DNA of 64,000 bases from a virus (IMGVR_UViG_3300029188_000196:2329-66328), one strand, 5' to 3'; positions 27,376 to 49,464 are shown, counted from the first letter of the stretch. Program-made: numbers and translations. Notes: generated by a model not told the origin, from the sequence alone.

Positions 27376-27400
27376 TTGCGTAACCACCTCCTTGCAGGCA

Positions 27401-27479
27401 TGAAAAAAGCCCATCTGCACGGAGCAGACAGGCTAAAAAATGGGTATAAAAATACCCTGCCAGCTTTCACCAGCAGGGT
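27401..27479 (-). terminator. Two tandem rho-independent terminators between the ATPase moron and the TMP gene
   Basis: On the minus strand, ACCCTGCTGGTGAAAGCTGGCAGGGT + ATTTTTAT, then CCCAT...ATGGG + CTTTTTTCA directly before the TMP RBS. Confidence 0.55.
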
Positions 27480-38025: not shown

Positions 38026-38510
38026 CAGCTTCCACCTCCTCCCAGCAGATTCTCCATCTCATCGGCTGCATCCGCAGGACCACCGTCCGAAGCAATGATC
38101 CGGCTTCGGGAGGACGGGGTCAGACCGAACTGCTCTGCAAACTTGTTCATGATCTTCAGATAGGTCTGTGCAATGGACACCTGCGGCACTTGCTGCCAGT
38201 AGCCGGACGGGGTCTTGACGATGGTGCCGTGCTGGGTGATGAACTCCTCAGCCTCTTTCCATCGGGCATAGGCCTGACAGTAACCGGCAAAGGCCGCCAT
38301 ATCCACTTCGGTCAGGATGCCGATGGCTTCCATCTGCTTTGCAAGTCTGCGCCACTCTTTCTTTGCTTCCGGCTCCAGCCACTTCGGACAGGCCGGCGCT
38401 TTCTTATTGGGCTTCGGTTCGCTGGTATTCAGCGGATGCTTGCCCGGATTGCCTTCCAGCTCCTTCATGGCGGTCGGCTTTGGTTTTCTGCCTCTGGTAG
38501 CCATTGGCAT
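38025..38510 (-). CDS. Terminase small subunit (P27 family)
   Basis: 'MATRGRKPKPTAMKELEGNPGKHPLN' is a typical P27 N-terminus. The start is at 38510 or 38504 (GGGAGGAG RBS). The ORF-track N-terminal extension is untranslated leader. Confidence 0.7.
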   Translation of the reverse strand: MPMATRGRKPKPTAMKELEGNPGKHPLNTSEPKPNKKAPACPKWLEPEAKKEWRRLAKQMEAIGILTEVDMAAFAGYCQAYARWKEAEEFITQHGTIVKTPSGYWQQVPQVSIAQTYLKIMNKFAEQFGLTPSSRSRIIASDGGPADAADEMENLLGGGGS

Positions 38511-38632
38511 CTCCTCCCTTCTGCAAAAATGGGTAAAGAAAAAGGACCTCCGAAGAAGTCCTTGAAATCTATATAAAACACATCGGATACGAGGCACAGC
38601 CCCTTTACGGGGCGTGTACCCTTTGGGTGCTG

Positions 38633-39013
38633 TTAGGTGTTGGGGTTGGCTTCCTTCCAAGCCTCGTACTCATCGACCAGCTCCGCTTCCTCGATGACCT
38701 GCCAGACGCTGCAGAAGCGGCTTCTTTGCTGCTCGATCTCCGCTTCCGTCCAGTCTTCCGGCTTGCGGCTCATGTCGTGGTAGGCATCCATCTCCGCCTT
38801 CGTCCGGAAGAATAGGATCTGCTTCAGCTTCAGCGTTTCCTCGTTGTTCCGCAGGCTGTACCGCTTATCCTCTGCCGCCCTGCAAAGGCTTCCGAGGTCG
38901 TTGCAGCCAAGGGTCATGTCCTGCTTGAAGGCGATCTCGATGCCGATCAGCTTCTTCTCGGTGTCGGCTTCCTGAATGTTCTTAAGGTAGGTTTTTGCTT
39001 TGTTCGTCATGGT
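38633..39013 (-). CDS. Hypothetical early protein
   Basis: 126 aa starting 'MTNKAKTYLKNIQEAD'. Preceded by GGAGG and promoter-operator module P1. Confidence 0.5.
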   Translation of the reverse strand, partial: TMTNKAKTYLKNIQEADTEKKLIGIEIAFKQDMTLGCNDLGSLCRAAEDKRYSLRNNEETLKLKQILFFRTKAEMDAYHDMSRKPEDWTEAEIEQQRSRFCSVWQVIEEAELVDEYEAWKEANPNT

Positions 39014-39060
39014 CTGTATCCTCCGTATGTTTTGTTTTCCGTAGGGCTTTTCCCTTCGTT

Positions 39061-39110
39061 GTGACTGTATATTACCGTCACTGCCGGATACTATCAAGCG
39101 GCTATACTGC
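39061..39110 (-). promoter_or_regulatory. Repeated early promoter-operator module, copy P1 (TTGATA-17-TAATAT with GTGAC-N11-GTCAC)
   Basis: Read on the minus strand: CTTGATAG, a 17-nt spacer, TAATAT. The palindrome GTGACGGTAATATACAGTCAC overlaps the -10. Confidence 0.6.
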
Positions 39111-39210
39111 ACGATCATACACACCTCTTTTTGTCGGATTTATGTGTATTTACACGCCGGAAGAATCCGCCACTACGAGCAAAAGCTCCCGAAGGAGCCC
39201 TGCCCATTTC

Positions 39211-39495
39211 TTAGTGTGCGTTTTTAATGCACCACTCGATTGCGTGTCCGGCATCCGTGTAGGTCTCATCGGAAATCTTCAGAAGCTCCAGCCGGCACTC
39301 AATCGGTGACCAGCCTTCCTCTGGGTCTTCCACAAATCCGTATACCGCTCCCTCCAGCATGCCGTTCCAGTTCATCTGGGCTACCAGAACCCGGTCACCG
39401 AACTGCATGATGCTGTCGTAGCAAGGTCTGAGTCGGTCATAGAAACTCTCGATGCTGATGTTGTTTTCCGGGAAGTCGATCAAATGCATTTTCAT
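39211..39495 (-). CDS. Hypothetical early protein
   Basis: 94 aa from 'MKMHLIDFPENN'. Preceded by module P2 and a GGAGG RBS. Confidence 0.5.
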   Translation of the reverse strand: MKMHLIDFPENNISIESFYDRLRPCYDSIMQFGDRVLVAQMNWNGMLEGAVYGFVEDPEEGWSPIECRLELLKISDETYTDAGHAIEWCIKNAH

Positions 39496-39540
39496 GGTAA
39501 AATCCTCCGTGTTTTCGTTATTCCTTGGGGCTTTCCCCTT

Positions 39541-39595
39541 TCGGTATGTGCATATTACCGTCAGGTGCAAAGGATAGCAAGCGGCTAAAGTACAC
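39541..39595 (-). promoter_or_regulatory. Early promoter-operator module, copy P2 (TTGCTA-17-TAATAT)
   Basis: Conserved module sequence. A GGGGAAAGCCCC 5'UTR hairpin lies downstream. Confidence 0.6.
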
Positions 39596-39629
39596 GATCT
39601 TCTGCCCGGAATACCAAGCAGAATGTACA

Positions 39630-39836
39630 TCACTCTGCATCCTGCTCCATGAGTTCCACAATGGTATCGTAGAAGAACTGCGGGTCATATGCCAGCGGCT
39701 CCCGTCCGGCTTCCTTGTCCATCCTGATCTGGTCTTCCACCATATCCTCGGCATCCTCCAGCGTGAAGGCATCCTTATCGCTGTCATCCATGTGGTTGTA
39801 GATTTCCACGATGGTATCCATCATCCGTTCTTCCAT
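39630..39836 (-). CDS. Small acidic hypothetical protein
   Basis: 69 aa, very acidic ('DDSDKDAFTLEDAEDMVEDQIRMDKEAG'). GGAGGG RBS 8 nt upstream. Confidence 0.45.
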   Translation of the reverse strand: MEERMMDTIVEIYNHMDDSDKDAFTLEDAEDMVEDQIRMDKEAGREPLAYDPQFFYDTIVELMEQDAE

Positions 39837-39885
39837 GTGCTTTTCCCTCCTGGCGCATCCACGCCGCCACATCTGCCCCTGTCTG

Positions 39886-39951
39886 GGGCGTTACCGGTTC
39901 ATCCGGATTGTTTTGCCACCCGTGGCACAAGCCCCTGTGTGGGGCTGTGTC
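39886..39951. repeat. Two GC-rich hairpins GCCCC-TGTNT-GGGGC about 36 bp apart
   Basis: GCCCCTGTCTGGGGC (39886-39900) and GCCCCTGTGTGGGGC (39937-39951) lie between two early genes. No U-tract follows, so they are not canonical terminators. Confidence 0.5.
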
Positions 39952-39964
39952 GGGGGCTGCCGGT

Positions 39965-40156
39965 TTATCTGTTCATCCGTCCCAGCAGGTAGGCTTCCTC
40001 CATTGCTTTCTGGATGCCCCAGACCGGAACCTCGATGAAGTCCTCGCTGTCATTGTCGCGGACTTCGAGGTCTCCCCGGCTGTCTACCGCTGCCATCAGG
40101 CGCTTGGCGATCTCCAGCAGGGCTTTTTCCTCTTCCTTGGTGATGTTCTTCTTCAT
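39965..40156 (-). CDS. Hypothetical early protein
   Basis: 64 aa from 'MKKNITKEEEKALLEIAKRL'. Preceded by module P3. Confidence 0.45.
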   Translation of the reverse strand: MKKNITKEEEKALLEIAKRLMAAVDSRGDLEVRDNDSEDFIEVPVWGIQKAMEEAYLLGRMNR

Positions 40157-40186
40157 GGTGGTTTCCTCCGTTTTTCTTGGTTTTCC

Positions 40187-40240
40187 GTTTCGGTATGTGC
40201 ATATTACCGTCACTTCCACACACTATCAAGCGGCTATACT
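40187..40240 (-). promoter_or_regulatory. Early promoter-operator module, copy P3 (TTGATA-17-TAATAT)
   Basis: Conserved module sequence. Confidence 0.6.
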
Positions 40241-40327
40241 ACACAAAGATGGGAAATCAGAACTGTGAGTATTACGGTAGAAGAAAAGGGCTGCCGTTTT
40301 TCGGCAAGCCCCATGTGTTTCTCTGGC

Positions 40328-40792
40328 TTAGTAGTCTTCTTCGTCCTCGTAATCTTCCTCGTCGTAGTCCTCTTCGTCCCAGCCGTCTTCCTCTTCTTCC
40401 ATCCAGCTGTCATCCCGGTCTTCTTGCTCATCCTTGAAGTCCCACATGTCTTTGGTCGGCTGGTTTCGGAGGTCTGGGTTCTGTTCGATGTAGTCGGCGA
40501 CCGCTCCCTCAAGGGTATCCAGCACCTTTTCGTAAGCATCCTCGCTGAAGATTTCCCAAAGGGCAACCGTCAGGTCTGCGATTTCGTGGTTGCCTTTTGC
40601 AATCAGGAATCGGGCCGGCGGGTTGCAGGTTTCCTTGCCGTAGGCAATGTTCACCATGTCGCCGTCGTTGCAGAATCGGTATCCGATTCGGTTGATGGCT
40701 CTGACCAGTTCTCCGGCGAGGCTTTCTGCCTTGCCCATGTCCGGCACCAGTTCCTTAAAAAGTTTGCTCAGTCGCTCTTCGTTCTTCGTCAT
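40328..40792 (-). CDS. Acidic early protein with poly-Asp/Glu C-terminus (candidate DNA-mimic / anti-restriction protein)
   Basis: 154 aa ending 'DDSWMEEEEDGWDEEDYDEEDYEDEEDY'. Preceded by module P4. Confidence 0.45.
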   Translation of the reverse strand: MTKNEERLSKLFKELVPDMGKAESLAGELVRAINRIGYRFCNDGDMVNIAYGKETCNPPARFLIAKGNHEIADLTVALWEIFSEDAYEKVLDTLEGAVADYIEQNPDLRNQPTKDMWDFKDEQEDRDDSWMEEEEDGWDEEDYDEEDYEDEEDY

Positions 40793-40822
40793 TGTCGTAT
40801 CCTCCGTTTTTGTTGTTTTCCC

Positions 40823-40878
40823 CTTTCGGTGACTGTATATTACCGTCACCTCGGAGCACTATCAAGTGGCTATACTAC
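40823..40878 (-). promoter_or_regulatory. Early promoter-operator module, copy P4 (TTGATA-17-TAATAT with GTGAC-N11-GTCAC)
   Basis: Conserved module sequence including the full palindrome. Confidence 0.6.
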
Positions 40879-40994
40879 ACGATCATTCGGCCCTGTAATT
40901 GTCATATTCATGTGCTTTTCATGCCAGCTTTCGGAAGACAGACACGAGCAAAAGGCTGGTCGATTCCAGCCCCTTGCGCCTGTCGGTCTTGCCC

Positions 40995-41255
40995 TTATCG
41001 GATAATTTCGAGGTAGCTGATGTTGCCCCAGCAATCCGTACCCTTGAAGCGGATGCGCTTTTCGTTCTCCCTGTCGAGGGTGAATTTCCGCAGGAGCTTC
41101 ATCTTCTGGATACGGTTCAGAAGGTCCTTGCCGTTCTTCGCATCCTCAACGGCATCCCTGATCTCGACCACCGCACTGTCGCTTCCGTACCAAAGGTTGC
41201 TGAGTGCCTCCGGAATTCCGTTTGCAAGGTAAAGGTTGATTTTTGTGTAGGTCAT
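40995..41255 (-). CDS. Hypothetical early protein
   Basis: 86-aa ORF, second gene of a two-gene unit behind P5. Confidence 0.45.
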   Translation of the reverse strand: MTYTKINLYLANGIPEALSNLWYGSDSAVVEIRDAVEDAKNGKDLLNRIQKMKLLRKFTLDRENEKRIRFKGTDCWGNISYLEIIR

Positions 41256-41270
41256 GTTTTTGTTCTCCTC

Positions 41271-41477
41271 TCAGAATGTCATCGTTTCCAGAATCTCATC
41301 CATGCCTGTCTCCCAGTCATGGCGGCTAAGTTCAATTTTGCTGTACATCTCTGCGCTGTCCGGCTCATCGAAAAGCCGGAAGCATTCTCTTGCCAGCTCC
41401 TCGCTAGTGTGCTGCTGGATTTCATCCGGCTGTCCATCCAGCCGTGTAAAGGTGATCTCGTAAGTGTAGCGTTCCAT
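41271..41477 (-). CDS. Hypothetical early protein
   Basis: 68 aa, 'MERYTYEITFTRLDGQPDEIQQH...'. Preceded by module P5. Confidence 0.45.
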   Translation of the reverse strand: MERYTYEITFTRLDGQPDEIQQHTSEELARECFRLFDEPDSAEMYSKIELSRHDWETGMDEILETMTF

Positions 41478-41496
41478 GTTCTTTGCCCCTTTCGTT

Positions 41497-41550
41497 TTGG
41501 TAGCTGTATATTACCGTCACTGCCGGATACTATCAAGCGGCTAAAGTACA
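41497..41550 (-). promoter_or_regulatory. Early promoter-operator module, copy P5 (TTGATA-17-TAATAT)
   Basis: Nearly identical to P1 over more than 50 bp. Confidence 0.6.
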
Positions 41551-41616
41551 CGATCATCTGCGCCCTGATCTGGTGGATTTATGTGTTTATCCGGGGAGGT
41601 TTCCCTCCCCGTTTTC

Positions 41617-41793
41617 TTAGCTGAACATCTCTGCCGTGTCATCGTCAATCCAAAGGTGCATGCCATCTGCTTCCATGATCGCGTGGTCTTCATGAACCTC
41701 GGTGATGATTCCTTCCCGGCTTCCGCTACCATCGAATTCGTTCCAGTGCCATGTTGTCTTTCTTCCTTTTTTCCATGTTCTCCAATCAGCCAT
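41617..41793 (-). CDS. Hypothetical early protein
   Basis: 58 aa from 'MADWRTWKKGRK'. Preceded by module P6. Confidence 0.4.
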   Translation of the reverse strand: MADWRTWKKGRKTTWHWNEFDGSGSREGIITEVHEDHAIMEADGMHLWIDDDTAEMFS

Positions 41794-41816
41794 TCTGCTG
41801 TCCTCCTTTGCTTTTT

Positions 41817-41866
41817 GTAGCTGTATATTACCGTCACTGCCCTGTGATAGCAAGGCCATAAAACCT
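41817..41866 (-). promoter_or_regulatory. Early promoter-operator module, copy P6 (TTGCTA-17-TAATAT)
   Basis: Conserved module sequence. Confidence 0.55.
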
Positions 41867-42002
41867 CATATTATCAACGATCTTCGTCCCTCATGTTTGG
41901 TACATATATGACCCCTGATTGACTTGCTATATATGTGTTTCTGCGGCATTATACACACAACGAAAGCAAAGAAAACCAAACCAAAAACGGAGGACAAAAA
42001 CC

Positions 42003-42254
42003 ATGAAAAAGACCATTACAGAAGTTGAAACCGCAATCGAAAACCGCATCGCAGAGCTTGAAGAAGAATACGAGCTGGACATTTACGACCGCAACGACAT
42101 TCGGGAAGAAGAATACCAGAAAGCCGGATGGCGGCACGACCCTTTCCCAGAGGAGCTTGAGGAAAAGGACGAAGAAGAGGAAGAGGATTGGCACTACCAC
42201 AGCATGGAGGAACGACTGAACGAGGTCGGCATGAGCATGAGGGATTTCTTCTAA
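42003..42254 (+). CDS. Small acidic coiled-coil protein (only plus-strand gene in the prophage)
   Basis: 83 aa from 'MKKTITEVETAIENRIAELEEEY' with an 'EEKDEEEEEDWHYH' acidic tail. GGAGG RBS 9 nt upstream. Confidence 0.5.
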   Translation: MKKTITEVETAIENRIAELEEEYELDIYDRNDIREEEYQKAGWRHDPFPEELEEKDEEEEEDWHYHSMEERLNEVGMSMRDFF

Positions 42255-42373
42255 GGAATCCCAAGAGGCTCCCCAGCAGAGGCTGGGGCTCTGCCTCGTA
42301 TCCCCCGTTTTGGTTTGGTATGATACACAAAACCGCTGCCAGATGTTTGTGTACATTATGGCGGCGGTTTTCC

Positions 42374-42402
42374 TTGCTATCGTTGCTTTCCAGAGGTAAT
42401 AT
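42374..42402 (+). promoter_or_regulatory. Inverted-orientation copy P9 of the early promoter module (TTGCTA-17-TAATAT, plus strand)
   Basis: Same module on the opposite strand. It fires into the 42412-42447 hairpin and runs antisense to the minus-strand genes at 42453..43099. Confidence 0.45.
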
Positions 42403-42411
42403 ACAGTAAAC

Positions 42412-42447
42412 TGGAAGGGGGTTCTCATTCTTTTGAGGCCCCCATTT
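42412..42447. terminator. Bidirectional terminator hairpin between convergent genes
   Basis: GGGGG-ttctcattcttttgagg-CCCCC, followed by ATTTTCC on the plus strand. Confidence 0.55.
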
Positions 42448-42452
42448 TCCGT

Positions 42453-42644
42453 CTAATCGGCTTCGCCCTGTATTGCCTGATGCATCACCCTGCGGTTATG
42501 CGCTCTGGCTTTCTTTTTCAGATCCCTTTTCCATCTGCGGATGGTCACCGCCTTGCAGTGGTTTCTCGACCATTCGTATTCATCCAGAACGTATCTGCCG
42601 CCGTGTTCCCTCTCGCCATAAGCCGGCATCTTTCTGTGTCCCAT
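42453..42644 (-). CDS. Small basic hypothetical protein
   Basis: 63 aa, Arg/Lys/His-rich. Confidence 0.4.
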   Translation of the reverse strand: MGHRKMPAYGEREHGGRYVLDEYEWSRNHCKAVTIRRWKRDLKKKARAHNRRVMHQAIQGEAD

Positions 42645-42715
42645 AGGCTCCTCCTGTTAAACTAAGCCCTCCCGGTCTTTTCTGGCCGAGAGGGTATTTT
42701 TCTGATTGTGGTATC

Positions 42716-43099
42716 TTATTCCGGTTTCGTGCCGTCATCCATCCGGATGATACTCATCTGCCCGAACATGCTGACGAATGCTTCCGGCACCCAGAAGCGT
42801 TCCGTATATTTGCGGATGAGGTCTTCCGGCAGCTCTGCGAAATCCTCCTCGCCCAATCCGCAAATGAAGAAGTTTCCCTTGATGGGCTGCTTCAGCTCTG
42901 GGATGTATCTGCTGAACGGCTTCTCAGTGAACAGCCCGTTGTCGTCCGTTACCAATGCGACTGCATCGGCTTCCCACGGGTAGGTTGCCGTAATGCAGTC
43001 GCATTCGAGGATGCGGTAGAATTCATCCAGCGAATCCTCGATGTCGACCACCTGCGGATGCTCCATAGGCTTGATCAGAAGGACTTTCATTCGACCCAC
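42716..43099 (-). CDS. DUF3846-like protein
   Basis: 'MKVLLIKPMEHPQVVDIEDSLDEFYRIL' N-terminus resembles DUF3846, a family common in early/anti-restriction regions of phages and conjugative elements. Family assignment is from memory. Confidence 0.45.
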   Translation of the reverse strand: MGRMKVLLIKPMEHPQVVDIEDSLDEFYRILECDCITATYPWEADAVALVTDDNGLFTEKPFSRYIPELKQPIKGNFFICGLGEEDFAELPEDLIRKYTERFWVPEAFVSMFGQMSIIRMDDGTKPE

Positions 43100-43106
43100 C
43101 CCGCTT

Positions 43107-43556
43107 TCACGATTCCGTATCCATGCATTCTTTCAGCGCACTTTCGAGGATGTGCATCGGGAACTTGAATGTCTTGTAGCCGTCATGCAGAACTTTGTAG
43201 TAATGCAGACTCGGTGCGCGCCGACCGAAGTCGTTTTCCATAATGTAGACCATTGCGGTCACCATCTCCGGCTCTGCGCCCTCACGGAGCAGTTCGATGT
43301 TCAGTTCTTCCTTGCGGTAGTAGGTCGGGTAGCCCTCGTAGGTGTCGAGGTTCTTTTCATCCCTCTCGGAAATCTCCCACACCAGAACCGGGGTGTTCTT
43401 CTTCGGATTCGGTGCAATGGTGGCGCAGCCCCGGAACAAAAGCTCCCAGCCGGCCAGCACCGCCTGTCCTGCGATTCTGGCATCCGGACACCGGTGTGCC
43501 ATCTGCTCCACCGACAGGTTGCTGCCGTAGGCAATGTAGTATTTCTTGTTTTTCAT
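43107..43556 (-). CDS. Gamma-glutamyl cyclotransferase-like (GGCT/AIG2-like) protein
   Basis: 'KYYIAYGSNLSVEQMAHRCPDA...VLAGWELLF' matches the AIG2/GGCT fold signature (YGSN(L/M) motif). 149 aa. Confidence 0.65.
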   Translation of the reverse strand: MKNKKYYIAYGSNLSVEQMAHRCPDARIAGQAVLAGWELLFRGCATIAPNPKKNTPVLVWEISERDEKNLDTYEGYPTYYRKEELNIELLREGAEPEMVTAMVYIMENDFGRRAPSLHYYKVLHDGYKTFKFPMHILESALKECMDTES

Positions 43557-43686
43557 TATTTCTTCGCGCTCCTTTCGTTTTCGCCCTTGTAAGGTGGTAT
43601 GGTATATATGCCTCTGTTCGGCTTAATTATCAAGGTCGATGAGCATCATATACTGCACAATGTTTTCTACCTGTGATCGTGTACTT

Positions 43687-43917
43687 TTACATTGGCGGCA
43701 GTTCACACGCCGTTACTTCGACTCCCTGGAAATCTTCGGTTCCCAGTTCGATTTGGCTGTCCTGCCACCAATCCTCCGCAACACGCTCGGCTTCCTGAAC
43801 GGTCGGCTCTTTCATTTCGGATTCATACACGGTGATGGTTCTCTGGTAGGTTTCGGTAATGGTCACCTTGAACGCTCTGCCATTCGGCTGGTTCTTTGTC
43901 TTGCTGGTATTGTTCAT
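43687..43917 (-). CDS. Hypothetical protein
   Basis: 76-aa ORF downstream of amidoligase-1, preceded by a GGGCGG..CCGCCC hairpin and a GAGGAAGGGAG RBS. Confidence 0.4.
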   Translation of the reverse strand: MNNTSKTKNQPNGRAFKVTITETYQRTITVYESEMKEPTVQEAERVAEDWWQDSQIELGTEDFQGVEVTACELPPM

Positions 43918-43990
43918 AGCTTTCGCTCCCTTCCTCTACCACCTAAAGGGCGGTTGTCCGCCCATAAGGTTCTTTCAGTTTGCGTAAGGC

Positions 43991-44926
43991 TTACCGCCAT
44001 GCGCTGTTCCCTTCCATGTTGTTCAGGTAGTATTCTCTGGCAGTCTTGAATTCGTCACCGATGAAGCCAAGCCTCAGCATCCAGCACCGCATTGCGTACT
44101 TTTCGTTCTCGGTCTGCTGGGGTTTAGGGCTTGCTGTTCTGACCATCTTGGCAAGCTGGTTGATGGCAAGGCAAAGCTGGATGAATGACTTGACCTGTCC
44201 AGCATGCATTCCGTTCTGCTTGCCATCGTGAGGGCAGTCGAATTGAAAAAGCCGAAATTCGATGGTGTGGTGTCCGTGGAAGAAGCTGTGCAGGTTGCAA
44301 ACTCGATATCGTGACGAATTGTAGTGGGTGTACCGATTCCCGTCCGCATTCTGTGTCTGATACCAGAGGTCTTCAAGCTCCTCCATCGTTCTGGGCTTCT
44401 TTCGATTGACCCCTTCCAGAAACTTGGGGTCAACCGTTCGGCAGTAACGGTTCATTCGGTTGCGGTCAATTCGGATTGCTTTTGCCAGCTGGCTTTCATG
44501 GGCCGCCATGATGTTCACGAGGTTTCGGATGGTCTGCGGTGTGTGTCCCTCCCCGCTGATATGAACATGAACTCCCGCCATTCTGGTGTAATCACTTTTC
44601 ATTCCGGCTTTCCGCAGTGCTCTTACAACCCCCTGCAGAAGTTCCATGTCCTCGTAATGAAGAATGGGGCTGACCATTTCACATTTCTGGCTTTCCGGGC
44701 CGGTAATGCTGACATCCTTCTGAAACTTCCACTCCCTGCCCTGCGCATCCCACGCACTCCACGCATCGTAGCCGTTGCGTCCTGCAGTGTATTCGTAGCG
44801 GTCGGTCTCAAAATACCGTGCCGCCGTTCTGGCAGCTTTCTCTCTCGTGATATTGTTACCCTCGATTTCAATACCGAATGTAGGCTTCTTCATGGCTTCA
44901 ATCTGCTCTCTTGTTTTATCATTCAT
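43991..44926 (-). CDS. Amidoligase (GCS2/COG2170-like carboxylate-amine ligase, 'Amidoligase_2')
   Basis: 'KKPTFGIEIEGNN' N-terminal strand and 'GVHVHISGEGH' HxH motif, as in the glutamate-cysteine-ligase-2 / PF12224 family. 311 aa. Preceded by module P7. Confidence 0.7.
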   Translation of the reverse strand: MNDKTREQIEAMKKPTFGIEIEGNNITREKAARTAARYFETDRYEYTAGRNGYDAWSAWDAQGREWKFQKDVSITGPESQKCEMVSPILHYEDMELLQGVVRALRKAGMKSDYTRMAGVHVHISGEGHTPQTIRNLVNIMAAHESQLAKAIRIDRNRMNRYCRTVDPKFLEGVNRKKPRTMEELEDLWYQTQNADGNRYTHYNSSRYRVCNLHSFFHGHHTIEFRLFQFDCPHDGKQNGMHAGQVKSFIQLCLAINQLAKMVRTASPKPQQTENEKYAMRCWMLRLGFIGDEFKTAREYYLNNMEGNSAWR

Positions 44927-44948
44927 GGTATGTTCTCCTTTGGCTTTC

Positions 44949-44997
44949 TTCCCTTTCGGTGTGTGTATATTACCGTCAGGAACGGACTAATTCAAGG
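44949..44997 (-). promoter_or_regulatory. Early promoter-operator module, copy P7 (TTGAAT-17-TAATAT)
   Basis: Conserved module sequence. Confidence 0.55.
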
Positions 44998-45065
44998 CCA
45001 TAAAAGAACATATAGTCGACAAATATACAGTAGAAAAATCGTGTACATTTCTGCGATTTATCCGC

Positions 45066-45094
45066 TTGATAATGTACATTTGAAGAGTTAATAT
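45066..45094 (+). promoter_or_regulatory. Inverted-orientation promoter P10 (TTGATA-17-TAATAT, plus strand), antisense to the amidoligase-2 3' end
   Basis: It shares the CCGCTTGATA -35 context with the early modules. No RBS-preceded ORF lies downstream. Confidence 0.4.
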
Positions 45095-45151
45095 CGGTAC
45101 AATGGAAGAAGGTCTCGCATATTTCCGGCCCCCATTGGGGGGCTTGGGAGC

Positions 45152-46300
45152 TTACGCTCCCGCCTCCAGCATCTGCGCCGTGTCTGCCTCACAGTCGGGC
45201 TGTGTTGGCTCGGCATTTGCCGATGCGACCGTTACCCCAGAGGGGAAACCGCCCTCCTGTGCCGCCTGTTTCGCGGCCTTGAGTGAATCTCGTTTTGCCT
45301 TTTCCCTTGCGAGGAACTTCTGTGCTTCCTCATCCGTGCGGAAAGCCGCATGCCCGGAAAGATTCTCCATGAGGATCTTGCGAGTTGCTTTGAAATCCGA
45401 CCCATTCATGCCCAGACGGATGAGCCATGTGCGGAGCGCATATTTTTCATTTTCATCGTTGACATTCTTAGCCTGAATGCGCTTCTGGCTGATGGCCTGC
45501 TGGTTCATCAGAACGGCAAGCTGTGCGAAAGCTGTCAGGTGTTCGTGGTCCGGTGCAGTCGGGAAGCCAGTGAAAATGACCTTCTCGGTGGTGATTTTCA
45601 AGCCTTCCAATGCCGCGCCATGCTCTGCTTCATAACCATTGACTGCGCTGATGAAGTTCATGGTGGCAAGGGTGCAAGTGTCATCCTTCAGCTTGTCGAC
45701 CAGCCCCTCTTCCACATGAAAGTGGCCGCCCGTTGCTTTCCCGATAAGATTTCCGCGGCTGTAAAGGAGGTTGACCAGATTACGCAGGGTCACACCGTTG
45801 TGCTGACTGACCAGGAAGGAAAGTTCCAAATCCAGAGGAACTTCATCCTGCTGGTCTTCCTCTTCCGTTTGCTCTTCGGTCTCCTGCTCCCCTGTATCCA
45901 ACTCTTCTTCCGGCTCATCCTCTGCTGTGTCGTCCGGCTCCGGTACTTCCGCAGGTTCATTCTGCTCTGCAAAATCATCTGCTTCGGATTCCTGCTCATC
46001 GGGAACTTCCGGTTCTGCTTCAGTCGGCTGTTCCTCTTCCGGTGCCGACTCTGCGTTCTCCGGCTGAACATCCGTGCTCTCGGCGTTGCGAATCAGCCCC
46101 TCGTTCAGCAGGCTCGTCAACAGCTCTGCATCCGCATTCTCCGGTTCGACCAGCAGGTTTCCATCCCGGTCGATGGTATAGTCGCCAATATCATAGGCAT
46201 ACAGAGGTGCTTTGGTGTAGTAAGGGTGGATGCCAGTCAGCTCCTCCATGCGTCTTGCGAGGGTCTTGCGCTCGGCTACATTCAGTTCAAATTTCAACAT
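45152..46300 (-). CDS. Amidoligase paralog with a large acidic insert (possibly divergent/inactive, or a partner/substrate)
   Basis: The C-terminal half aligns with the 43991..44926 protein ('GGHFHVEEG' ~ 'GVHVHISGEGH'; 'ENEKYALRTWLIRLGMNGSDFKATRKILMENLSGHAAFR' ~ 'ENEKYAMRCWMLRLGFIGDEFKTAREYYLNNMEGNSAWR'). An acidic Glu/Pro/Thr-rich insert of about 130 aa lies after the N-terminal domain. Preceded by module P8. Confidence 0.6.
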   Translation of the reverse strand: MLKFELNVAERKTLARRMEELTGIHPYYTKAPLYAYDIGDYTIDRDGNLLVEPENADAELLTSLLNEGLIRNAESTDVQPENAESAPEEEQPTEAEPEVPDEQESEADDFAEQNEPAEVPEPDDTAEDEPEEELDTGEQETEEQTEEEDQQDEVPLDLELSFLVSQHNGVTLRNLVNLLYSRGNLIGKATGGHFHVEEGLVDKLKDDTCTLATMNFISAVNGYEAEHGAALEGLKITTEKVIFTGFPTAPDHEHLTAFAQLAVLMNQQAISQKRIQAKNVNDENEKYALRTWLIRLGMNGSDFKATRKILMENLSGHAAFRTDEEAQKFLAREKAKRDSLKAAKQAAQEGGFPSGVTVASANAEPTQPDCEADTAQMLEAGA

Positions 46301-46346
46301 AATTCGTCGCTCCTTTTTTAATTAGTCTTTTGTGCATTCCGATGTT

Positions 46347-46395
46347 CTTTTCGGTAGCACATATATCCCTCTAAACCGAGCAAATAGCAAGGCCA
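46347..46395 (-). promoter_or_regulatory. Early promoter-operator module, copy P8 (TTGCTA-17-GATATA)
   Basis: Conserved -35 context GGCCTTGCTAT; the -10 is more divergent. Confidence 0.45.
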
Positions 46396-46522
46396 TTTCC
46401 CGATATTCTTCATGTTCAACCATTTACACAACACGGTTCAAAAGCTGTTGTGTAAATGGTCCTGATATGTATGCCCACCATATCACTGGGTAGCTGTCTA
46501 CCTAGTAATATAGCGGGCCAGT

Positions 46523-48694
46523 TTATTCTTCCAGTCCTGCGCACCATGCGATGCCTGCCAGAACAAAGTACACACATGGAAGTGCGACACCGTTACCCCA
46601 GAGTTTGTACTCAGCCGCATCCGAATACGGATCTGCCAGCCATTTCCGGATTTGCTTCTCCGTCTTCGGCTTCTTCGCATGGGTCACGATCTTACGGTGT
46701 GTTTCAAACACATCTGCCCAGAATGCCAACTCTTCCTCGGTTGGATTTTCCGTTCCAAGGTCTCTGCACCACCAATCCGGGAATCCTTGAAGTCTGGCAC
46801 ACTCGGTCGGTGTCAGGCGGCGGACGGTGTAGGTCACAGGTGTGGACTGTGCTTCCGGGTTGTCGATGACAAGACGGTCATTGAAAGCGTCCTGCCCATT
46901 GAAGCCGCTGGGATGTGCCCCGCTCGCCACGGTACCAGCCACACCCTCGTTCAGATGCGGTGCCGGTGCAATGGTGGTCGGGTCTTTGTAATCCCGTGCC
47001 ATCAGAGTCGGAGATACATTCTCCTCTACTCGCATAAAGGAGCCAGTGGTCATGGCATACACATCTTCCGGTGCGCAGACTGCATGACGGTCAGTGGCGT
47101 CCAGCGTAAAGCAGACATCCTCATTGACCCCATCTCCCTGTGGACCATTCTCGTCCTTGCGGCCGATCATGTTACCCTGCAGGACGAAGGTCTGCATCTG
47201 GTCGCTTCGGGTCGCCATGAGTGCGCCAGACTTTCCATGCAGGTCAATCAGCTCATTGCGCTGATTCACATGGAAAGCAGTCACATCTTCCGGCTGTACC
47301 ACAAAGGTCTGCTGTTTCATTCCCGGCTCTGCTGCCAGTGCCGCTGACTTGTCCCCCAGATCCCGGACTTCATCTCTCTGGTTCTGGGTAAAAGCAACAG
47401 GCTCTACCACACAGATGCCGCCCTGATTGCAAGTCGGAGCACCGCCGCTGCGGTCCAGTGTCCGGGAAGTTTCCGCTTCATAGAAACCGCTATGCGGATT
47501 GTCGGACATCATGGAATGGCTGGCTTTCGAGCAGACACCATAGCATTTCGGGACGAACAGTGTCTGGTCGTTGTTACAGCCAAGGGTGGCCGATTTTTCT
47601 TCCTGCCAGATGACTCCCTTGCCGCCGCCCTCACACCCGGAACGGATCTTCAGCGTGACTGCCGGAGAATTATCTGCACCATCCATGACCAGCGGAACAT
47701 TGCCACCGCCCGTACCGCATCGGCTGGTCAGCGTTTGAACCTTGCCATCTTCGGAAATCTTCACCCTGCTGTCTGCCGGATGATTTTCCAATGCAATGGC
47801 GGCAGGTACGACACCTGCCCGGAGGGTCGGTGACCGTTCTTCCTCATATCCGATGCTTCTGGCATTTGCGGAATGCTCAGTACAGAAACCAGCAGCTTCA
47901 AGAATCTCTCCCGGCTTGTTCAGGCCGATTCTTCCTGCACAGCTTGCCGTTCCAATGCCGCTTTCAGAACTGGCGGCAGCTCTTTGCCACGCACGGAAGC
48001 TCTCCGGAGAATACCGAGACAGGCCTTCGGACTTAAATAGTACTTTTCCGGCACTTTGACCTGCAAAGTCTGCGACAAGGAACAGACGTTTTCTTCGTTG
48101 AGCCAAGCCGAAGTGTTGAGCATCGAGAGTTCTGTATGCCACGCTCCATCCGTCTCCCAGAATAATATCGGCGGTTGCCCACTTTCCCTTTTCAGGCATA
48201 GGCAGCGGTGGCGCTTCTGGCTCTTTGACTGCGATGATTTCTTCAAGGACCGACTTAAAGTCCTCACCGGATTTGCTGGAGAACAGTCCGGGAACGTTCT
48301 CGACGACAAAATATCGTGGGTTTTCTCCATCGGTTGCTTCCCTCATTTCTTTAATAATCCTGACCGCCTCATAAAACAGACCACTTCGGGTTGTCTTTTC
48401 TCCGCCGTGGTCGATATGCTGAACGCCCTCTCTTTTTCCAGCCACAGAAACGGACTGGCAAGGGAAACCACCTGTGATGATATCTACAGGAGGGAGTTCC
48501 GCTCCACGAAGACTGGAAATATCTCCGTAGTGGATTACCTGCGGCAGTCGTTTTGTAGTCACACGAATTGGGAATGGTTCAACTTCACAGTTCCAGACCG
48601 GCTGGATTCCTGCAAGCAGCCCTCCCAATTCAAAACCCCCGGAACCTGCAAAGAGGCTGCCGAGGGTCAAGGTCTTATTCTGTTCTGTACTCAT
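46523..48694 (-). CDS. DNA (cytosine-5)-methyltransferase, large (723 aa; probably multispecific phage-type)
   Basis: Motif I 'LFAGSGG', motif IV 'GFPCQSVSVAG', motif VI 'FVVENVPGL'. A long variable region suggests several target-recognition domains. Confidence 0.85.
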   Translation of the reverse strand: MSTEQNKTLTLGSLFAGSGGFELGGLLAGIQPVWNCEVEPFPIRVTTKRLPQVIHYGDISSLRGAELPPVDIITGGFPCQSVSVAGKREGVQHIDHGGEKTTRSGLFYEAVRIIKEMREATDGENPRYFVVENVPGLFSSKSGEDFKSVLEEIIAVKEPEAPPLPMPEKGKWATADIILGDGWSVAYRTLDAQHFGLAQRRKRLFLVADFAGQSAGKVLFKSEGLSRYSPESFRAWQRAAASSESGIGTASCAGRIGLNKPGEILEAAGFCTEHSANARSIGYEEERSPTLRAGVVPAAIALENHPADSRVKISEDGKVQTLTSRCGTGGGNVPLVMDGADNSPAVTLKIRSGCEGGGKGVIWQEEKSATLGCNNDQTLFVPKCYGVCSKASHSMMSDNPHSGFYEAETSRTLDRSGGAPTCNQGGICVVEPVAFTQNQRDEVRDLGDKSAALAAEPGMKQQTFVVQPEDVTAFHVNQRNELIDLHGKSGALMATRSDQMQTFVLQGNMIGRKDENGPQGDGVNEDVCFTLDATDRHAVCAPEDVYAMTTGSFMRVEENVSPTLMARDYKDPTTIAPAPHLNEGVAGTVASGAHPSGFNGQDAFNDRLVIDNPEAQSTPVTYTVRRLTPTECARLQGFPDWWCRDLGTENPTEEELAFWADVFETHRKIVTHAKKPKTEKQIRKWLADPYSDAAEYKLWGNGVALPCVYFVLAGIAWCAGLEE

Positions 48695-49464
48695 TCGGCA
48701 ACCTCCTCTCCGAGCATCTGCTCATTGGCTTTCTGGTAAAAATCTCTGGATACCTCAAATCCATAGCTGTTGCGGCCAAGCTCCCGTGCGGCACGAAGGG
48801 TCGAACCGCTGCCAGCACATGGGTCAATAACCACATCGCCGGGGTCAGTGAAAGTTTCGATCAGGCGTTTCAGCACAGAGATTGGTTTCTGAGAGGGATG
48901 AATTTTCGGATATTCCTTACTATCCCGTTTCCAGTCAAACCAGTTGAAGATCATGTGGGGCTTGCCGTCCTCACCGAGATTGCGGAACTTGGGGAGCTTG
49001 CCCCGGTACAGCACCAGCGCATACTCCGTTGCACCCACAATCTTCATGTTGGCTTTGAGTACCTGTGGACTGTAGTTCTTACAGAACACCAGTGGGATAT
49101 AATTCTTGAAGCCGTATTTTTCCGCTTCGGTGATCACCTTCGGGATCTGCTGGAACGCACAGAACACAATCATGCATGGCGCGTCCTTTTCACCCGTGCC
49201 GGGTTCTTTCTTCAGCAGGCGGTTGCAGAAATGGAAATATTCTGCAATGTTGAAAGTGAAGTCGGTATTGAATGCCGCTTTCCTCGCCTTGCTGCTCTCC
49301 CCGTTTTTGTTGTCGCCATCCACATACCAGTCCGGCCGACTGGCGTAGAAGTCCGTACCGATGTTGTACGGAATGTCTGCGATCACCAGCTGTGCCTTGG
49401 GGATGTTGTAGGACTTGAAGTTCTGGAAGTTGTCATGGATGAGGACACATTTTACATCAGGCAT
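48691..49464 (-). CDS. DNA N6-adenine/N4-cytosine methyltransferase (beta-class)
   Basis: 'VIADIPYNIG' DPPY motif and 'HPSQKPISVLKRLIETFTDPGDVVIDPCAGSGST' AdoMet motif. The likely start is the internal ATG at about 49464. Confidence 0.8.
   Translation of the reverse strand: MPDVKCVLIHDNFQNFKSYNIPKAQLVIADIPYNIGTDFYASRPDWYVDGDNKNGESSKARKAAFNTDFTFNIAEYFHFCNRLLKKEPGTGEKDAPCMIVFCAFQQIPKVITEAEKYGFKNYIPLVFCKNYSPQVLKANMKIVGATEYALVLYRGKLPKFRNLGEDGKPHMIFNWFDWKRDSKEYPKIHPSQKPISVLKRLIETFTDPGDVVIDPCAGSGSTLRAARELGRNSYGFEVSRDFYQKANEQMLGEEVAE

What the first reader, a model, noticed from the sequence alone, without database searches (positions are those of the whole stretch)
39041..46360. Conserved 5'UTR hairpins downstream of the repeated early promoters
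Between each repeated promoter and its RBS lies a conserved G/C hairpin, for example GGGGAAAGCCCC at about 39525-39536 and GGGAAAAGCCC at about 39045-39055. Equivalent ACCGAAAGGGGAAA segments occur at 40171-40200, 40811-40835, 41481-41500, 44941-44965 and 46331-46360. A structured leader shared by all early transcripts could be an RNase processing site, a binding site for an RNA-binding regulator, or a stabiliser.
Basis: seen in the sequence. Interest (0 to 1): 0.5.

Follow-up and report, generated by a model that had tools for sequence, protein, structure and literature searches.

The report
Repeated phage promoter cassette, variable 5′ leader
A gut (Blautia-type) phage places the same ~100-bp promoter-plus-leader cassette in front of many small accessory genes; only some copies carry a small hairpin at the start of the mRNA, the rest keep just a ribosome-binding-site-like half of it, and both forms resemble known mRNA 5′-end protectors, so this is interesting but not a new kind of element.

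Summary
The sequences exist at about the stated coordinates, on the minus strand. They are the first 14-25 nt of the predicted mRNAs from a repeated expression cassette: a conserved upstream block, -35 TTGMTA, a 17-bp spacer, -10 TAATAT, a conserved A start, a purine-rich leader and an ACGGAGGA SD.

They are not a hairpin shared by all transcripts. Only u1 (39040-39058) and u2 (39523-39544) of nine window units fold. u3 and u8 keep only a 3-4-bp outer stem. u4 and u7 keep only the 5′ half (ACCGAAAGGGGAAA). In u5 that box is the SD itself, and u6 lacks it.

Across 283 units from related phages and Lachnospiraceae genomes, 75 of 152 distinct leaders carry a two-tier stem-loop starting at about +2. 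Its presence is gene-specific (34/35 and 29/32 versus 0/21, 0/26 and 0/19). A 13-nt indel bounded by a short direct repeat toggles it within one gene. Formal covariation is weak to moderate.

The single-stranded half-box pairs with the 16S 3′ end as well as the true SD does. The best reading is a 5′-end stabiliser module in two forms, stem-loop or STAB-SD-like, inside a PeSL-like shuffling cassette. Function is inferred, not shown.

The parts
39008..39097 (-). Cassette u1: -35 TTGATA 39092-39097, -10 TAATAT 39069-39074, predicted start A 39062, 52-nt leader, SD GGAGGA 39019-39024, ATG 39008-39010 (125-aa unannotated gene 38633-39010, last gene before terS)
   Evidence: orthologues carry the same cassette
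39040..39058 (-). u1 5′ stem-loop: outer CG/CG plus inner AGGG/CCCU, loop AAAAG; 4 unpaired nt before it
   Evidence: RNAfold -7.1 kcal/mol, z -2.7; CM hit 39035-39060, E = 3e-4; present in 68/77 loci encoding the orthologous gene
39493..39580 (-). Cassette u2: -35 TTGCTA 39575-39580, -10 39552-39557, start A 39545, 50-nt leader, SD 39503-39508, ATG 39493-39495 (Nmad4-domain gene 39211-39495)
39523..39544 (-). u2 5′ stem-loop: outer CC/GG plus inner GGGG/CCCC, loop AAAG; begins at +2
   Evidence: RNAfold -7.8 kcal/mol; CM hit 39519-39545, E = 1e-9; 29/32 orthologous units have it
40154..40229 (-). Cassette u3: -35 TTGATA, -10 40201-40206, start A 40194, 38-nt leader, SD 40164-40169, ATG 40154-40156 (DUF6900 gene)
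40181..40194 (-). u3 5′ box ACCGAAACGGAAAA: outer stem only (CCG-AAA-CGG, -1.4 kcal/mol), inner helix absent
   Evidence: CM aligns it with the 13 inner-helix positions deleted; 0/21 orthologous units have the full hairpin
40790..40865 (-). Cassette u4: -35 TTGATA, -10 40837-40842, start A 40830, 38-nt leader, SD 40800-40805, ATG 40790-40792
40817..40830 (-). u4 5′ box ACCGAAAGGGGAAA, single-stranded and SD-like; this is the hairpin-less allele of a leader that is polymorphic among relatives
   Evidence: no fold; anti-SD duplex -12.0 kcal/mol; same gene with/without a 13-nt segment bounded by a GGGAA repeat
41475..41536 (-). Cassette u5: short 24-nt leader; the box CGAAAGGGG (41486-41496) is the SD of the gene itself
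   Evidence: 0/26 orthologous units have a hairpin
41791..41853 (-). Cassette u6: same promoter, 25-nt leader ACAAAAAGCAAAGGAGGA...; no box, no hairpin
   Evidence: 0/19
44924..44995 (-). Cassette u7 (amidoligase-like gene 43991-44926): -35 TTGAAT, -10 44967-44972, start A 44960, box ACCGAAAGGGAAGA 44947-44960, no stable hairpin (-2.7 kcal/mol)
46298..46390 (-). Looser cassette u8 (second amidoligase-like gene): -35 TTGCTA, -10 GATATAT; 5′ box ACCGAAAAGAACAUCGG 46339-46355 forms only a 4-bp CCGA/UCGG stem (-4.0 kcal/mol)
   Evidence: CM 46335-46355, E = 0.23, inner helix replaced by 7 nt
43554..43633 (-). Looser cassette u9 (GGCT gene 43107-43556): -35 TTGATA, -10 CATATAT; leader has CGAAAACGAAAGGAG next to the SD, no 5′ hairpin

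Best explanation
The flagged motifs are the 5′-terminal module of the mRNAs made from a ~100-bp expression cassette. The phage repeats this cassette in front of each small accessory gene between its methyltransferase genes and its terminase genes. Each unit is a self-contained promoter-leader-SD-gene-terminator module.

The 5′ module occurs in interchangeable states:
1. A small two-tier stem-loop (outer CCG/CGG-type helix, A-rich internal loop, inner GGGG/CCCC-type helix, variable A-rich loop). In 33 of the 75 folding leaders it starts 1 nt after the predicted start; in the rest, 2-7 nt after it.
2. The same leader with the 3′ half deleted. This leaves a single-stranded polypurine box (ACCGAAAGGGGAAAA) that is as complementary to the 3′ end of 16S rRNA as the real SD is.
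3. Short leaders in which that box is the SD, or is absent.

The most likely function of states 1 and 2 is protection of the mRNA 5′ end in a Firmicute host. Protection would work either by burying the 5′ end in a helix (a poor substrate for RppH and the RNase J1 5′-exonuclease) or by parking a 30S subunit on a 5′-proximal SD-like sequence (STAB-SD/polypurine-stabiliser type). This would set gene-specific expression levels.

Shown: the anatomy, the distribution, the folding, the anti-SD complementarity and the polymorphism. Inferred: the transcription start, RNA-level function and stabilisation.
For: - **Cassette and start site:** seven exact promoter cores. In the profile of distinct units from related contigs, conservation runs from -50 to +20. 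The 7th base after the -10 is A in 94 %, and the -35/-10 spacer is poorly conserved.
- **Folding:** +1..+30 of 152 distinct leaders is bimodal. 75 fold at <= -4.8 kcal/mol. The mean is -4.56, against -1.30 for shuffles and -1.96 for a downstream control. The helix starts after 1 unpaired nt in 33 of the 75.
- **Strand:** sense folds better than antisense (58 versus 32 at <= -7 kcal/mol; paired Wilcoxon p = 5e-7).
- **Diversity of helices:** 15 inner-helix types and 7 outer types, including a CCG/CGG to CGG/CCG flip, and 33 loop sequences. Native halves are more stable than chimeras (-7.6 versus -5.75 kcal/mol).
- **Gene specificity:** 34/35 and 29/32 for two genes, and 9/9 in a group with very different stems. 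A protein-anchored sample gives 68/77 loci.
- **Specificity of location:** the hairpin CM hits nothing credible outside promoter-proximal positions in the window.
- **SD-likeness:** the box-anti-SD duplex is -12.0 kcal/mol, against -9.5 for the true SD. Class means are -8.6 to -9.3, against -4.7 to -6.0 for shuffles and -2.3 to -3.7 for the middle of the leader. In 17-28-nt leaders the box is the SD.
- **Host:** Lachnospiraceae (Blautia, Wujia), from multi-copy genome hits.
- **Literature:** BsRppH needs at least 2, and prefers at least 3, unpaired 5′ nt and a G at position 2 (here it is C); 5′ 'roadblocks' stabilise downstream RNA against RNase J1 (PMC3997798). STAB-SD is thought to work by 30S binding (PMC12970973).
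Against: - No transcript data exist, so the start site is only predicted.
- Formal covariation on the CM alignment of close relatives is not significant: 118 of 500 shuffles do as well, and changes are mainly one-sided G-C to G-U.
- 30 % of foreign 3′ halves pair as well as the native one, because nearly all stems share a G-run/C-run core.
- The u2 hairpin alone is not better than shuffles (z = -0.7).
- The stems are short (4+2-3 bp, -7 to -12 kcal/mol).
- u1-type leaders have 4 unpaired nt before the helix, which is enough for RppH.
- Half of the cassettes do without any hairpin, and some (u6) without the box.
- The hairpin has been lost repeatedly, so it is dispensable.
- The whole leader, not just the stem, is conserved in orthologues. 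That also fits cassette homogenisation by recombination.
- The box's ACCG is also the right arm of a DNA inverted repeat around the -10.
Confidence: 0.42

Rival explanations
1. There is no RNA-level function. The box and hairpin are passengers of a repeated promoter/5′UTR cassette. The cassette is kept similar by recombination or gene conversion between copies and by selection on DNA-level promoter properties, such as a purine-rich initially transcribed sequence that favours promoter escape and a pyrimidine-poor leader that keeps the SD open.
For: - The whole leader from the -10 to the ATG is about equally conserved in orthologues.
- The cassettes bound gene replacements and indels among relatives, as in PeSLs (PMC2839356).
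- The hairpin has been lost repeatedly and is absent from half the units.
- Formal covariation is weak.
- Leaders are 67-81 % purine.
Against: - Hairpin presence is strongly gene-specific and stable across 76-100 % protein identity. Random homogenisation between neighbouring cassettes would blur this.
- Very different stem sequences keep pairing at the same place in one orthologous group (MTEKTAQQ).
- Sense folds better than antisense.
Confidence: 0.25
2. The element is a binding site for a regulator. One option is a DNA operator made of the inverted repeat that brackets the -10 (CGGTA-N9-TACCG or GTGAC-N11-GTCAC, whose right arm is the start of the box). The other is an RNA hairpin bound by a phage protein, as a translational repressor site or a boxB/N-like antitermination site.
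For: - 69 of 126 distinct units have a perfect inverted repeat of at least 5 bp around the -10, against 18 of 126 shuffles, in two sequence versions.
- A further conserved ~22-bp block lies upstream of the -35.
- The hairpin-bearing units are the two nearest the terminase operon, which is preceded by a terminator-like hairpin and has no sigma-70-like promoter.
Against: - The left arms of the inverted repeats were partly fixed by my search pattern, and units within a type are related, so there are effectively two observations.
- The hairpin loops vary from 3 to 9 nt with 33 sequences. That is not what a sequence-specific loop reader such as N/boxB expects.
- No boxA-like partner or candidate protein was identified.
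- Every gene has its own promoter and terminator, so antitermination is not required.
Confidence: 0.15
3. The hairpin is an endoribonuclease processing site (RNase III, RNase Y or a phage RegB-like enzyme) that matures or inactivates the transcripts.
For: Position in the leader. Phage early RNAs of SP82/SPO1 and T7 are known to be processed at conserved hairpins (own knowledge, not checked here).
Against: - Helices of 4+3 bp are far below the roughly two helical turns RNase III needs (established knowledge).
- If the hairpin sits at the very 5′ end of the primary transcript there is nothing upstream to remove.
- It is absent from half of the units.
Confidence: 0.05
4. The hairpin is a PeSL-type terminator/attenuator that stops read-through from the upstream cassette.
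For: PeSL stem-loops are often polyG/polyC tracts next to repeated sigma-70-like promoters in front of ORFans. The layout here is similar.
Against: - No U-tract follows the stem; the flank is A-rich.
- The stems are only 4 bp.
- Separate, classical terminators lie upstream of the promoters (e.g. 40291-40307).
- The stem is downstream of the predicted start.
Confidence: 0.05

Closest known systems
5′-terminal stem-loop mRNA stabilisers (E. coli ompA/papA leaders; B. subtilis aprE leader)
   Same: A small helix at or within a few nt of the 5′ end of the mRNA. It is upstream of, and does not occlude, a strong SD, and no U-tract follows. The host is a Firmicute with the RppH/RNase J-type 5′-end-dependent decay described in PMC3997798.
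   Different: The helix is much shorter and weaker (4+2-3 bp). It is repeated as part of a promoter cassette in a phage, present on only some genes and polymorphic. No half-life data exist.
STAB-SD of B. thuringiensis cry3A and the SP82 phage polypurine 5′ stabiliser (Agaisse & Lereclus 1996; Hue et al. 1995, cited in PMC5737220 and PMC3997798)
   Same: An SD-like polypurine sequence (GAAAGGGG here, GAAAGGAGG for STAB-SD from memory) lies close to the mRNA 5′ end. No start codon follows it, and it lies well upstream of the real SD. One precedent comes from a Firmicute phage early RNA.
   Different: Here the sequence sits at the primary 5′ end rather than at a processed end. In half of the leaders its G-run is sequestered in the hairpin. 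30S binding is untested.
PeSLs (promoter-early stem-loops) of T4-type phages (PMC2839356, PMC4122927)
   Same: A ~100-bp repeated cassette with a strong sigma-70-like promoter, a G-run/C-run stem-loop and an SD lies in front of small unannotated genes in a plastic genome region. Cassette-bounded gene gain, loss and replacement is seen among relatives.
   Different: The phage and host are different (Lachnospiraceae phage with terS/terL adjacent). The stem-loop is inside the transcribed leader and is not terminator-like, and separate terminators exist. Recombination or mini-circle formation was not tested.
Lambda nut boxB / N antitermination
   Same: A short G/C stem with a purine-rich loop lies just downstream of repeated phage promoters.
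   Different: Loop length and sequence are not conserved. There is no boxA, no N-like protein was identified, and the hairpin is absent from many units.

Membership tests
5′-terminal stem-loop mRNA stabiliser | Stable helix within a few unpaired nt of the mRNA 5′ end | tested here: inconclusive
   Relative to the predicted start (A, 94 % conserved, 7 nt after the -10), the helix begins after 1 nt in 33 of 75 hairpin leaders and after 2-7 nt in the others. u2 has 1 nt and u1 has 4 nt. The start site is not experimentally known.
5′-terminal stem-loop mRNA stabiliser | Presence of the helix lengthens mRNA half-life; disruption shortens it | not testable with these tools
   Needs rifampicin-chase or reporter experiments.
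STAB-SD / polypurine 5′ stabiliser | Sequence complementary to the 16S rRNA 3′ end, comparable to a real SD | tested here: met
   The duplex with GAUCACCUCCUUUCU is -12.0 kcal/mol for ACCGAAAGGGGAAAAC, against -9.5 for the true SD. Class means are -8.6 to -9.3, against -4.7 to -6.0 for shuffles. The anti-SD sequence was assumed from Bacillota in general, not read from the host.
STAB-SD / polypurine 5′ stabiliser | Located near the 5′ end, far from and not serving the start codon | tested here: met
   In long leaders the box is at +1 to +14 and the true SD is 20-40 nt downstream. No ATG, GTG or TTG follows the box at SD spacing. In short leaders (u5) the box does serve the start codon, so those copies fail this criterion.
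STAB-SD / polypurine 5′ stabiliser | 30S binding and stabilisation of downstream RNA | not testable with these tools
   Needs toeprinting and half-life assays.
PeSL regulatory cassette | Repeated composite motif: sigma-70-like promoter plus stem-loop plus SD in front of small accessory genes in a plastic region | tested here: met
   The genes are mostly unannotated. Cassette-level gene differences occur among relatives.
PeSL regulatory cassette | The stem-loop acts as terminator/attenuator for upstream transcription and sits upstream of or just before the start site | tested here: not met
   The stem is downstream of the predicted start, only 4 bp, and followed by an A-rich rather than a U-rich tract. 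Separate terminators lie upstream. A weak inverted repeat does bracket the -10, and its role is unknown.
PeSL regulatory cassette | Recombination between cassettes (mini-circles, modular shuffling) | tested here: inconclusive
   Synteny with cassette-bounded replacements and gains or losses is seen in 21 gene-order patterns. Breakpoints were not mapped.
Lambda-type nut (boxB) | Conserved stem with a GNRA-like purine pentaloop of fixed sequence, plus boxA | tested here: not met
   There are 33 different loops of 3-9 nt. No conserved partner box lies downstream apart from the A-rich spacer.
RNase III processing hairpin | Long (about 20 bp) double-stranded stem | tested here: not met
   The longest helices are 5-6 bp inner plus 2-5 bp outer.
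Any curated RNA family (Rfam 15) | Match to a covariance model | tested here: not met
   No hit at gathering thresholds in the window, and none at E <= 1 in 38400-46500.

The most novel reading that the evidence does not exclude
The 5′ module is a deliberately switchable device. A 13-nt segment bounded by a short direct repeat (GGGAA/GGAAAA) is gained or lost by slippage. This flips a given accessory-gene mRNA between a hairpin-capped 5′ end and a ribosome-docking (SD-like) 5′ end, so phage populations can retune individual anti-defence or accessory genes without touching the promoter or the gene.

Alternatively, the hairpin on the two terminase-proximal cassettes, together with the palindrome around the -10, is the target of a phage factor. 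That factor would let transcription from the last cassette read through the terminator-like hairpin at 38542-38563 into the otherwise promoter-less terminase/late operon.
Probability: 0.1. Interest if true: 0.6.

Novelty: new member of a known kind. Interest (0 to 1): 0.3.

Why it matters
If the stabiliser reading is right, this abundant group of human-gut Lachnospiraceae phages uses one portable promoter/5′UTR cassette with a tunable 5′ cap (hairpin, SD-like box or neither) to express a shuffled set of small accessory genes, several of them next to DNA-modification enzymes. Three consequences would follow:
- PeSL-like 'mobile regulatory cassettes' would extend from T4-type coliphages to Firmicute gut phages.
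- It would provide natural allelic series (±13 nt) for testing 5′-end-dependent mRNA decay in Clostridia, where almost nothing is known.
- It would give compact, strong expression parts for Blautia and other Lachnospiraceae.

It does not point to a new class of RNA element.

Tried and rejected
- **Rfam:** no hit at gathering thresholds or at E <= 1. No tRNA or tmRNA genes.
- **MAFFT plus RNAalifold** on 72 hairpin leaders gave no consensus structure, because variable helix and loop lengths break the alignment. MAFFT on trimmed helices was no better.
- **CM-based alignment of close relatives** gave no significant covariation, so I do not claim covariation proof. I used alignment-free tests instead.
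- **HMM search for more promoter copies** in the fetched loci added almost nothing.
- **Exact box at 15675-15684:** no cassette around it, so it is a chance match.
- **Homologue search for the u1 gene product:** hundreds of unannotated gut-phage proteins and no functional clue. PHROGs and Pfam were uninformative for most small genes.
- **SD-sequestering alternative fold** (C-run pairing with the true SD): not seen in any full-leader MFE. Rejected.
- **Intrinsic terminator or attenuator reading:** rejected for lack of a U-tract.
- **RNase III site:** rejected on helix length.
- **Hue et al. 1995 (SP82 polypurine stabiliser):** could not be read because it is not held. It is cited only through the reference lists of PMC5737220 and PMC3997798.

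Full report
**Context**

The window is a human-gut phage. It is 99.9 % identical over part of the region to the unannotated record MT836278 'Bacteriophage sp.'. It has no tRNA genes and no Rfam hits. Nearly all genes are on the minus strand.

The flagged region lies between three DNA methyltransferase genes (one of them a ParB-methyltransferase fusion), two amidoligase-like genes and a GGCT gene upstream, and small and large terminase downstream. In between are small genes that are mostly unannotated, apart from one Nmad4 and one DUF6900 gene.

**What is there**

Seven exact copies of GACGGTAATAT lie on the minus strand, at 39069, 39552, 40201, 40837, 41508, 41825 and 44967; none is expected by chance. 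Two looser copies lie at about 46361 and 43604.

Each copy is the core of a cassette with these parts:
- a conserved ~22-bp upstream block;
- a -35 hexamer TTGATA or TTGCTA;
- a 17-bp spacer;
- a -10 hexamer TAATAT;
- six variable bases, then a conserved A;
- a purine-rich leader (67-81 % purine);
- the SD ACGGAGGA;
- 7-8 nt and then the ATG.

Terminator-like hairpins follow several of the genes. Each unit is therefore a self-contained promoter-leader-gene-terminator module.

They occupy the first 14-25 nt after the conserved A, which is the predicted 5′ end of each mRNA.

**Do they fold?**

Only two do:
- u1 (39040-39058; CG/CG outer helix plus AGGG/CCCU inner helix) folds at -7.1 kcal/mol with z = -2.7.
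- u2 (39523-39544; CC/GG plus GGGG/CCCC) folds at -7.8 kcal/mol, but with z only -0.7.

All other leaders fold at 0 to -4 kcal/mol with z > -1.

I built a covariance model from a gap-free seed of the two-tier hairpin. In the whole 64-kb window with filters off it gave the following:
- u2 as a full match (E = 1e-9) and u1 as a full match (E = 3e-4).
- u3 (40181-40194) and u8 (46335-46355) as forms in which the inner helix is deleted or replaced. These keep only a 3-4-bp CCG/CGG stem.
- Nothing credible away from promoters.

u4 and u7 retain only the 5′ half (ACCGAAAGGGGAAA). In u5 the same CGAAAGGGG is the gene's SD, and u6 has no box. So 'a conserved hairpin between each promoter and its RBS' is not correct for this window.

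**Relatives**

To avoid selecting on the leader, I scanned with a promoter-only pattern (TTGNTA-N12-GACGGTAATAT).
- The viral collection gave 119 stretches, many with 2-7 copies.
- The genome collection gave multi-copy hits in Blautia isolates and MAGs, Wujia and other Lachnospiraceae. The host is therefore very probably a Clostridia-class Firmicute.

Together these yielded 283 units and 152 distinct leaders.

The position profile, made on the viral loci alone, shows conservation from about -50 to +20. The -35/-10 spacer is close to random. The A at position 7 is 94 % conserved, and the box is ACCGAAAGGGAAAA. This is not the uniform similarity expected of a recent duplication.

**The hairpin family-wide**

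Folding +1..+30 of all 152 leaders gives a bimodal distribution:
- 75 leaders fold at <= -4.8 kcal/mol, and the rest are near zero.
- The mean is -4.56 kcal/mol, against -1.30 for shuffles and -1.96 for a downstream control segment.
- The sense strand folds better than the antisense strand (58 versus 32 leaders at <= -7 kcal/mol; p = 5e-7).
- In the folding class the helix begins after a single unpaired nucleotide in 33 of 75 and ends at +23 to +25 in most.

The architecture is an outer helix (CCG/CGG, CGG/CCG, CG/CG or CC/GG), a 1-4-nt A-rich internal loop, an inner helix and a hairpin loop. There are 15 inner-helix types: GGGG/CCCC, AGGG/CCCU, GGGC/GCCC, GGGCG/CGCCC, AAGGC/GCCUU, GGGA/UCCC, CGCC/GGCG and others. 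There are 33 different A-rich loops of 3-9 nt.

**How strong is the evidence for selection on pairing?**

It is moderate.

For:
- The helix persists at the same place with different sequences. One orthologous gene group (N-terminus MTEKTAQQ...) has five or six different stems.
- Swapping 5′ and 3′ halves between helix types costs about 2 kcal/mol on average.

Against:
- On the CM alignment of close relatives the formal test is not significant. 118 of 500 shuffles do as well, and changes are mostly G-C to G-U.
- 30 % of foreign halves pair as well as the native one, because almost all stems keep a G-run/C-run core.

I therefore treat the hairpin as real and recurrent, but not as proven by covariation.

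**Distribution by gene**

Grouping units by the N-terminus of the downstream protein shows that the hairpin is gene-specific.

| Downstream gene (orthologues of) | Units with hairpin |
|---|---|
| u1 gene | 34/35 |
| u2 (Nmad4) gene, two subgroups | 29/32 |
| u3 gene | 0/21 |
| u5 gene | 0/26 |
| u6 gene | 0/19 |
| u4 gene | 14/34 |
| u7 gene | 2/22 |

A sample anchored on the u1 protein rather than on the promoter gave the same picture:
- 68 of 77 loci and 21 of 26 distinct leaders carry the hairpin.
- There are a few single-copy degenerate variants and one deletion variant.
- The whole leader is highly conserved, while the promoter spacer is the most variable stretch.

For the u4 gene, leaders in front of proteins with identical N-termini differ by a 13-nt segment (CAGCCCCAAGGGA) bounded by a GGGAA direct repeat (L087 versus L064).

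Gene order among relatives is syntenic, with cassette-bounded replacements, gains and losses. The two hairpin-bearing cassettes are consistently the two nearest terS.

**The half-box is SD-like**

- ACCGAAAGGGGAAAAC can form an 8-bp duplex with the 3′ end of 16S rRNA (-12.0 kcal/mol), stronger than the downstream ACGGAGGA (-9.5).
- Class means for the box are -8.6 to -9.3 kcal/mol. The true SD gives -9.9 to -10.1, shuffled boxes -4.7 to -6.0, and the middle of the leader -2.3 to -3.7.
- No start codon follows the box in long leaders.
- In the 17-28-nt leaders the box is the SD.

**Mechanism**

In Firmicutes, two classes of 5′ stabiliser are established (own knowledge, backed by the reference lists and text of PMC3997798 and PMC5737220):
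- 5′-terminal stem-loops, such as the aprE leader;
- 5′-proximal SD-like or polypurine sequences that bind 30S without translation, such as STAB-SD of cry3A and the polypurine element from phage SP82.

Both act as roadblocks to the 5′-exonuclease RNase J1. BsRppH needs at least 2-3 unpaired 5′ nucleotides and prefers G at position 2. The hairpin leaders of the u2 type offer one unpaired nucleotide and a C at position 2. PMC12970973 restates the 30S-binding model for STAB-SD.

The cassette's two long-leader states match these two classes. So I take 5′-end protection, tuned gene by gene, as the most likely function (confidence about 0.4). Every functional step is inferred: the start site, RNA folding in vivo, 30S binding and stabilisation.

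**Rivals**

1. *Passenger of a homogenised cassette, or a DNA-level promoter property (about 0.25).* This fits the uniform leader conservation and the repeated loss of the hairpin. It fits less well with the strict gene-specificity.
2. *Regulator site (about 0.15).* 69 of 126 distinct units, against 18 of 126 shuffles, have a perfect inverted repeat of at least 5 bp bracketing the -10. It is CGGTA-N9-TACCG or GTGAC-N11-GTCAC, and in the first type the right arm is the ACCG of the box. This could be an operator or a PeSL-like stem-loop overlapping the -10. However, my search pattern fixed part of the left arm, and the observations are effectively two. A boxB/N-like RNA site is unlikely given the variable loops.
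3. *RNase processing site (about 0.05).* The helices are too short for RNase III.
4. *PeSL-type terminator (about 0.05).* There is no U-tract, and separate terminators exist.

**Comparison with known systems**

At cassette level the closest analogue is the PeSL of T4-type phages. PeSLs are ~100-bp repeats with a strong sigma-70-like promoter, a polyG/polyC stem-loop and an SD. They lie in front of ORFans in hyperplastic regions and mediate modular shuffling (PMC2839356, PMC4122927).

The differences here are the phage and host, the stem-loop's position inside the transcript, and its non-terminator character.

At RNA level the closest analogues are the 5′ stem-loop and STAB-SD/polypurine stabilisers. 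No curated RNA family matches.

**Verdict**

The element is best filed as a new member of known kinds. It has a mildly interesting twist: interchangeable hairpin-capped and SD-like 5′ ends, toggled by a short indel.

Interest is 0.3.

Noticed in passing
window 39098-39120, 39581-39603, 40230-40250, 40866-40888, 41537-41559 (minus strand, immediately upstream of each -35): A ~22-bp block (consensus GATGATCGTGTAnTTTAGCCGC) directly upstream of the -35 is about as conserved as the hexamers across related phages. It is not A/T-rich like a UP element, so it may be a binding site for an activator or repressor of the whole cassette family.
   Followed up: no
window, around each -10: e.g. 39062-39082 (GTGAC-N11-GTCAC, u1), 40828-40849 (u4), 39541-39560 (CGGTA-N9-TACCG, u2), 40190-40209 (u3): Perfect 5-6-bp inverted repeats bracket the -10 hexamer in 69 of 126 distinct units, against 18 of 126 shuffles, in two sequence versions. 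This could be an operator or a PeSL-like stem-loop overlapping the -10. The left arm was partly fixed by my search pattern.
   Followed up: partly
window 42375-42450 (+ strand): A cassette-like promoter on the opposite strand (TTGCTA-17-TAATAT-ACAGT, same -10 context) is followed after about 10 nt by a very stable hairpin (GGAAGGGGGUUCUC...GAGGCCCCCAUUUUCC; -22.8 kcal/mol, z -2.6) with a U-tract. It may make a ~45-nt small RNA. The hairpin also serves as terminator of the minus-strand gene 42453-42644.
   Followed up: partly
window 45066-45094 (+ strand): A perfect TTGATA-17-TAATAT promoter match on the + strand lies divergent from the u7 promoter. It points into the 3′ end and terminator hairpins of the minus-strand amidoligase-like gene 45152-46300, so it is a possible antisense transcript.
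   Followed up: no
window 38500-38640 (minus strand): Between the stop of the u1 gene and terS lies a 9-bp UUCG-loop terminator-like hairpin (38542-38563), followed by GGAGGA-N7-ATG at about 38506. This is probably the true terS start, since the PHROG match begins at residue 51 of the longer ORF. No sigma-70-like promoter precedes the terminase/structural operon, so its expression may depend on read-through or on an unrecognised late promoter.
   Followed up: no
window 41900-42005 (+ strand): The only + strand gene in the cluster (42003-42254, acidic 83-aa protein) has a leader of the same style (CACAACGAAAGCAAAGAAAACC...AAACGGAGGA-N8-ATG) behind a different promoter. The leader module is therefore not tied to one promoter or one strand.
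   Followed up: no
window 24544-25110 (within the 1678-aa gene 22384-27420, minus strand): A family of 39-nt direct repeats is spaced at multiples of 33 nt (33, 66, 132, 198) inside a very large gene (family D3). This probably reflects an 11-residue periodic protein repeat in a tail or fibre protein.
   Followed up: no
window 42716-50737: A dense cluster of nucleic-acid-modification-type genes sits next to the cassettes: GGCT, two amidoligase-like genes, three DNA methyltransferases (one a ParB-methyltransferase fusion) and, at 39211-39495, an Nmad4 domain protein. This suggests the cassette-driven small genes belong to an anti-restriction or DNA-modification island.
   Followed up: no
L168 (Blautia sp. 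HCP28S3_G10, 67.9-kb contig), L184 (Blautia luti), L186 (Wujia chipingensis), L172 (uncultured Blautia): Multi-copy cassette arrays occur in Lachnospiraceae isolate genomes and MAGs. This points to Blautia or Wujia as hosts of this very abundant phage group; the u1 protein clusters hold thousands of member sequences. Two 'Lawsonibacter' bins (L137, L173) also carry them and may be mis-binned.
   Followed up: partly
window 15675-15684 (minus strand): An exact ACCGAAAGGG lies outside the cassette region, upstream of a different promoter-like site and with no cassette around it. I judge it a chance match.
   Followed up: yes
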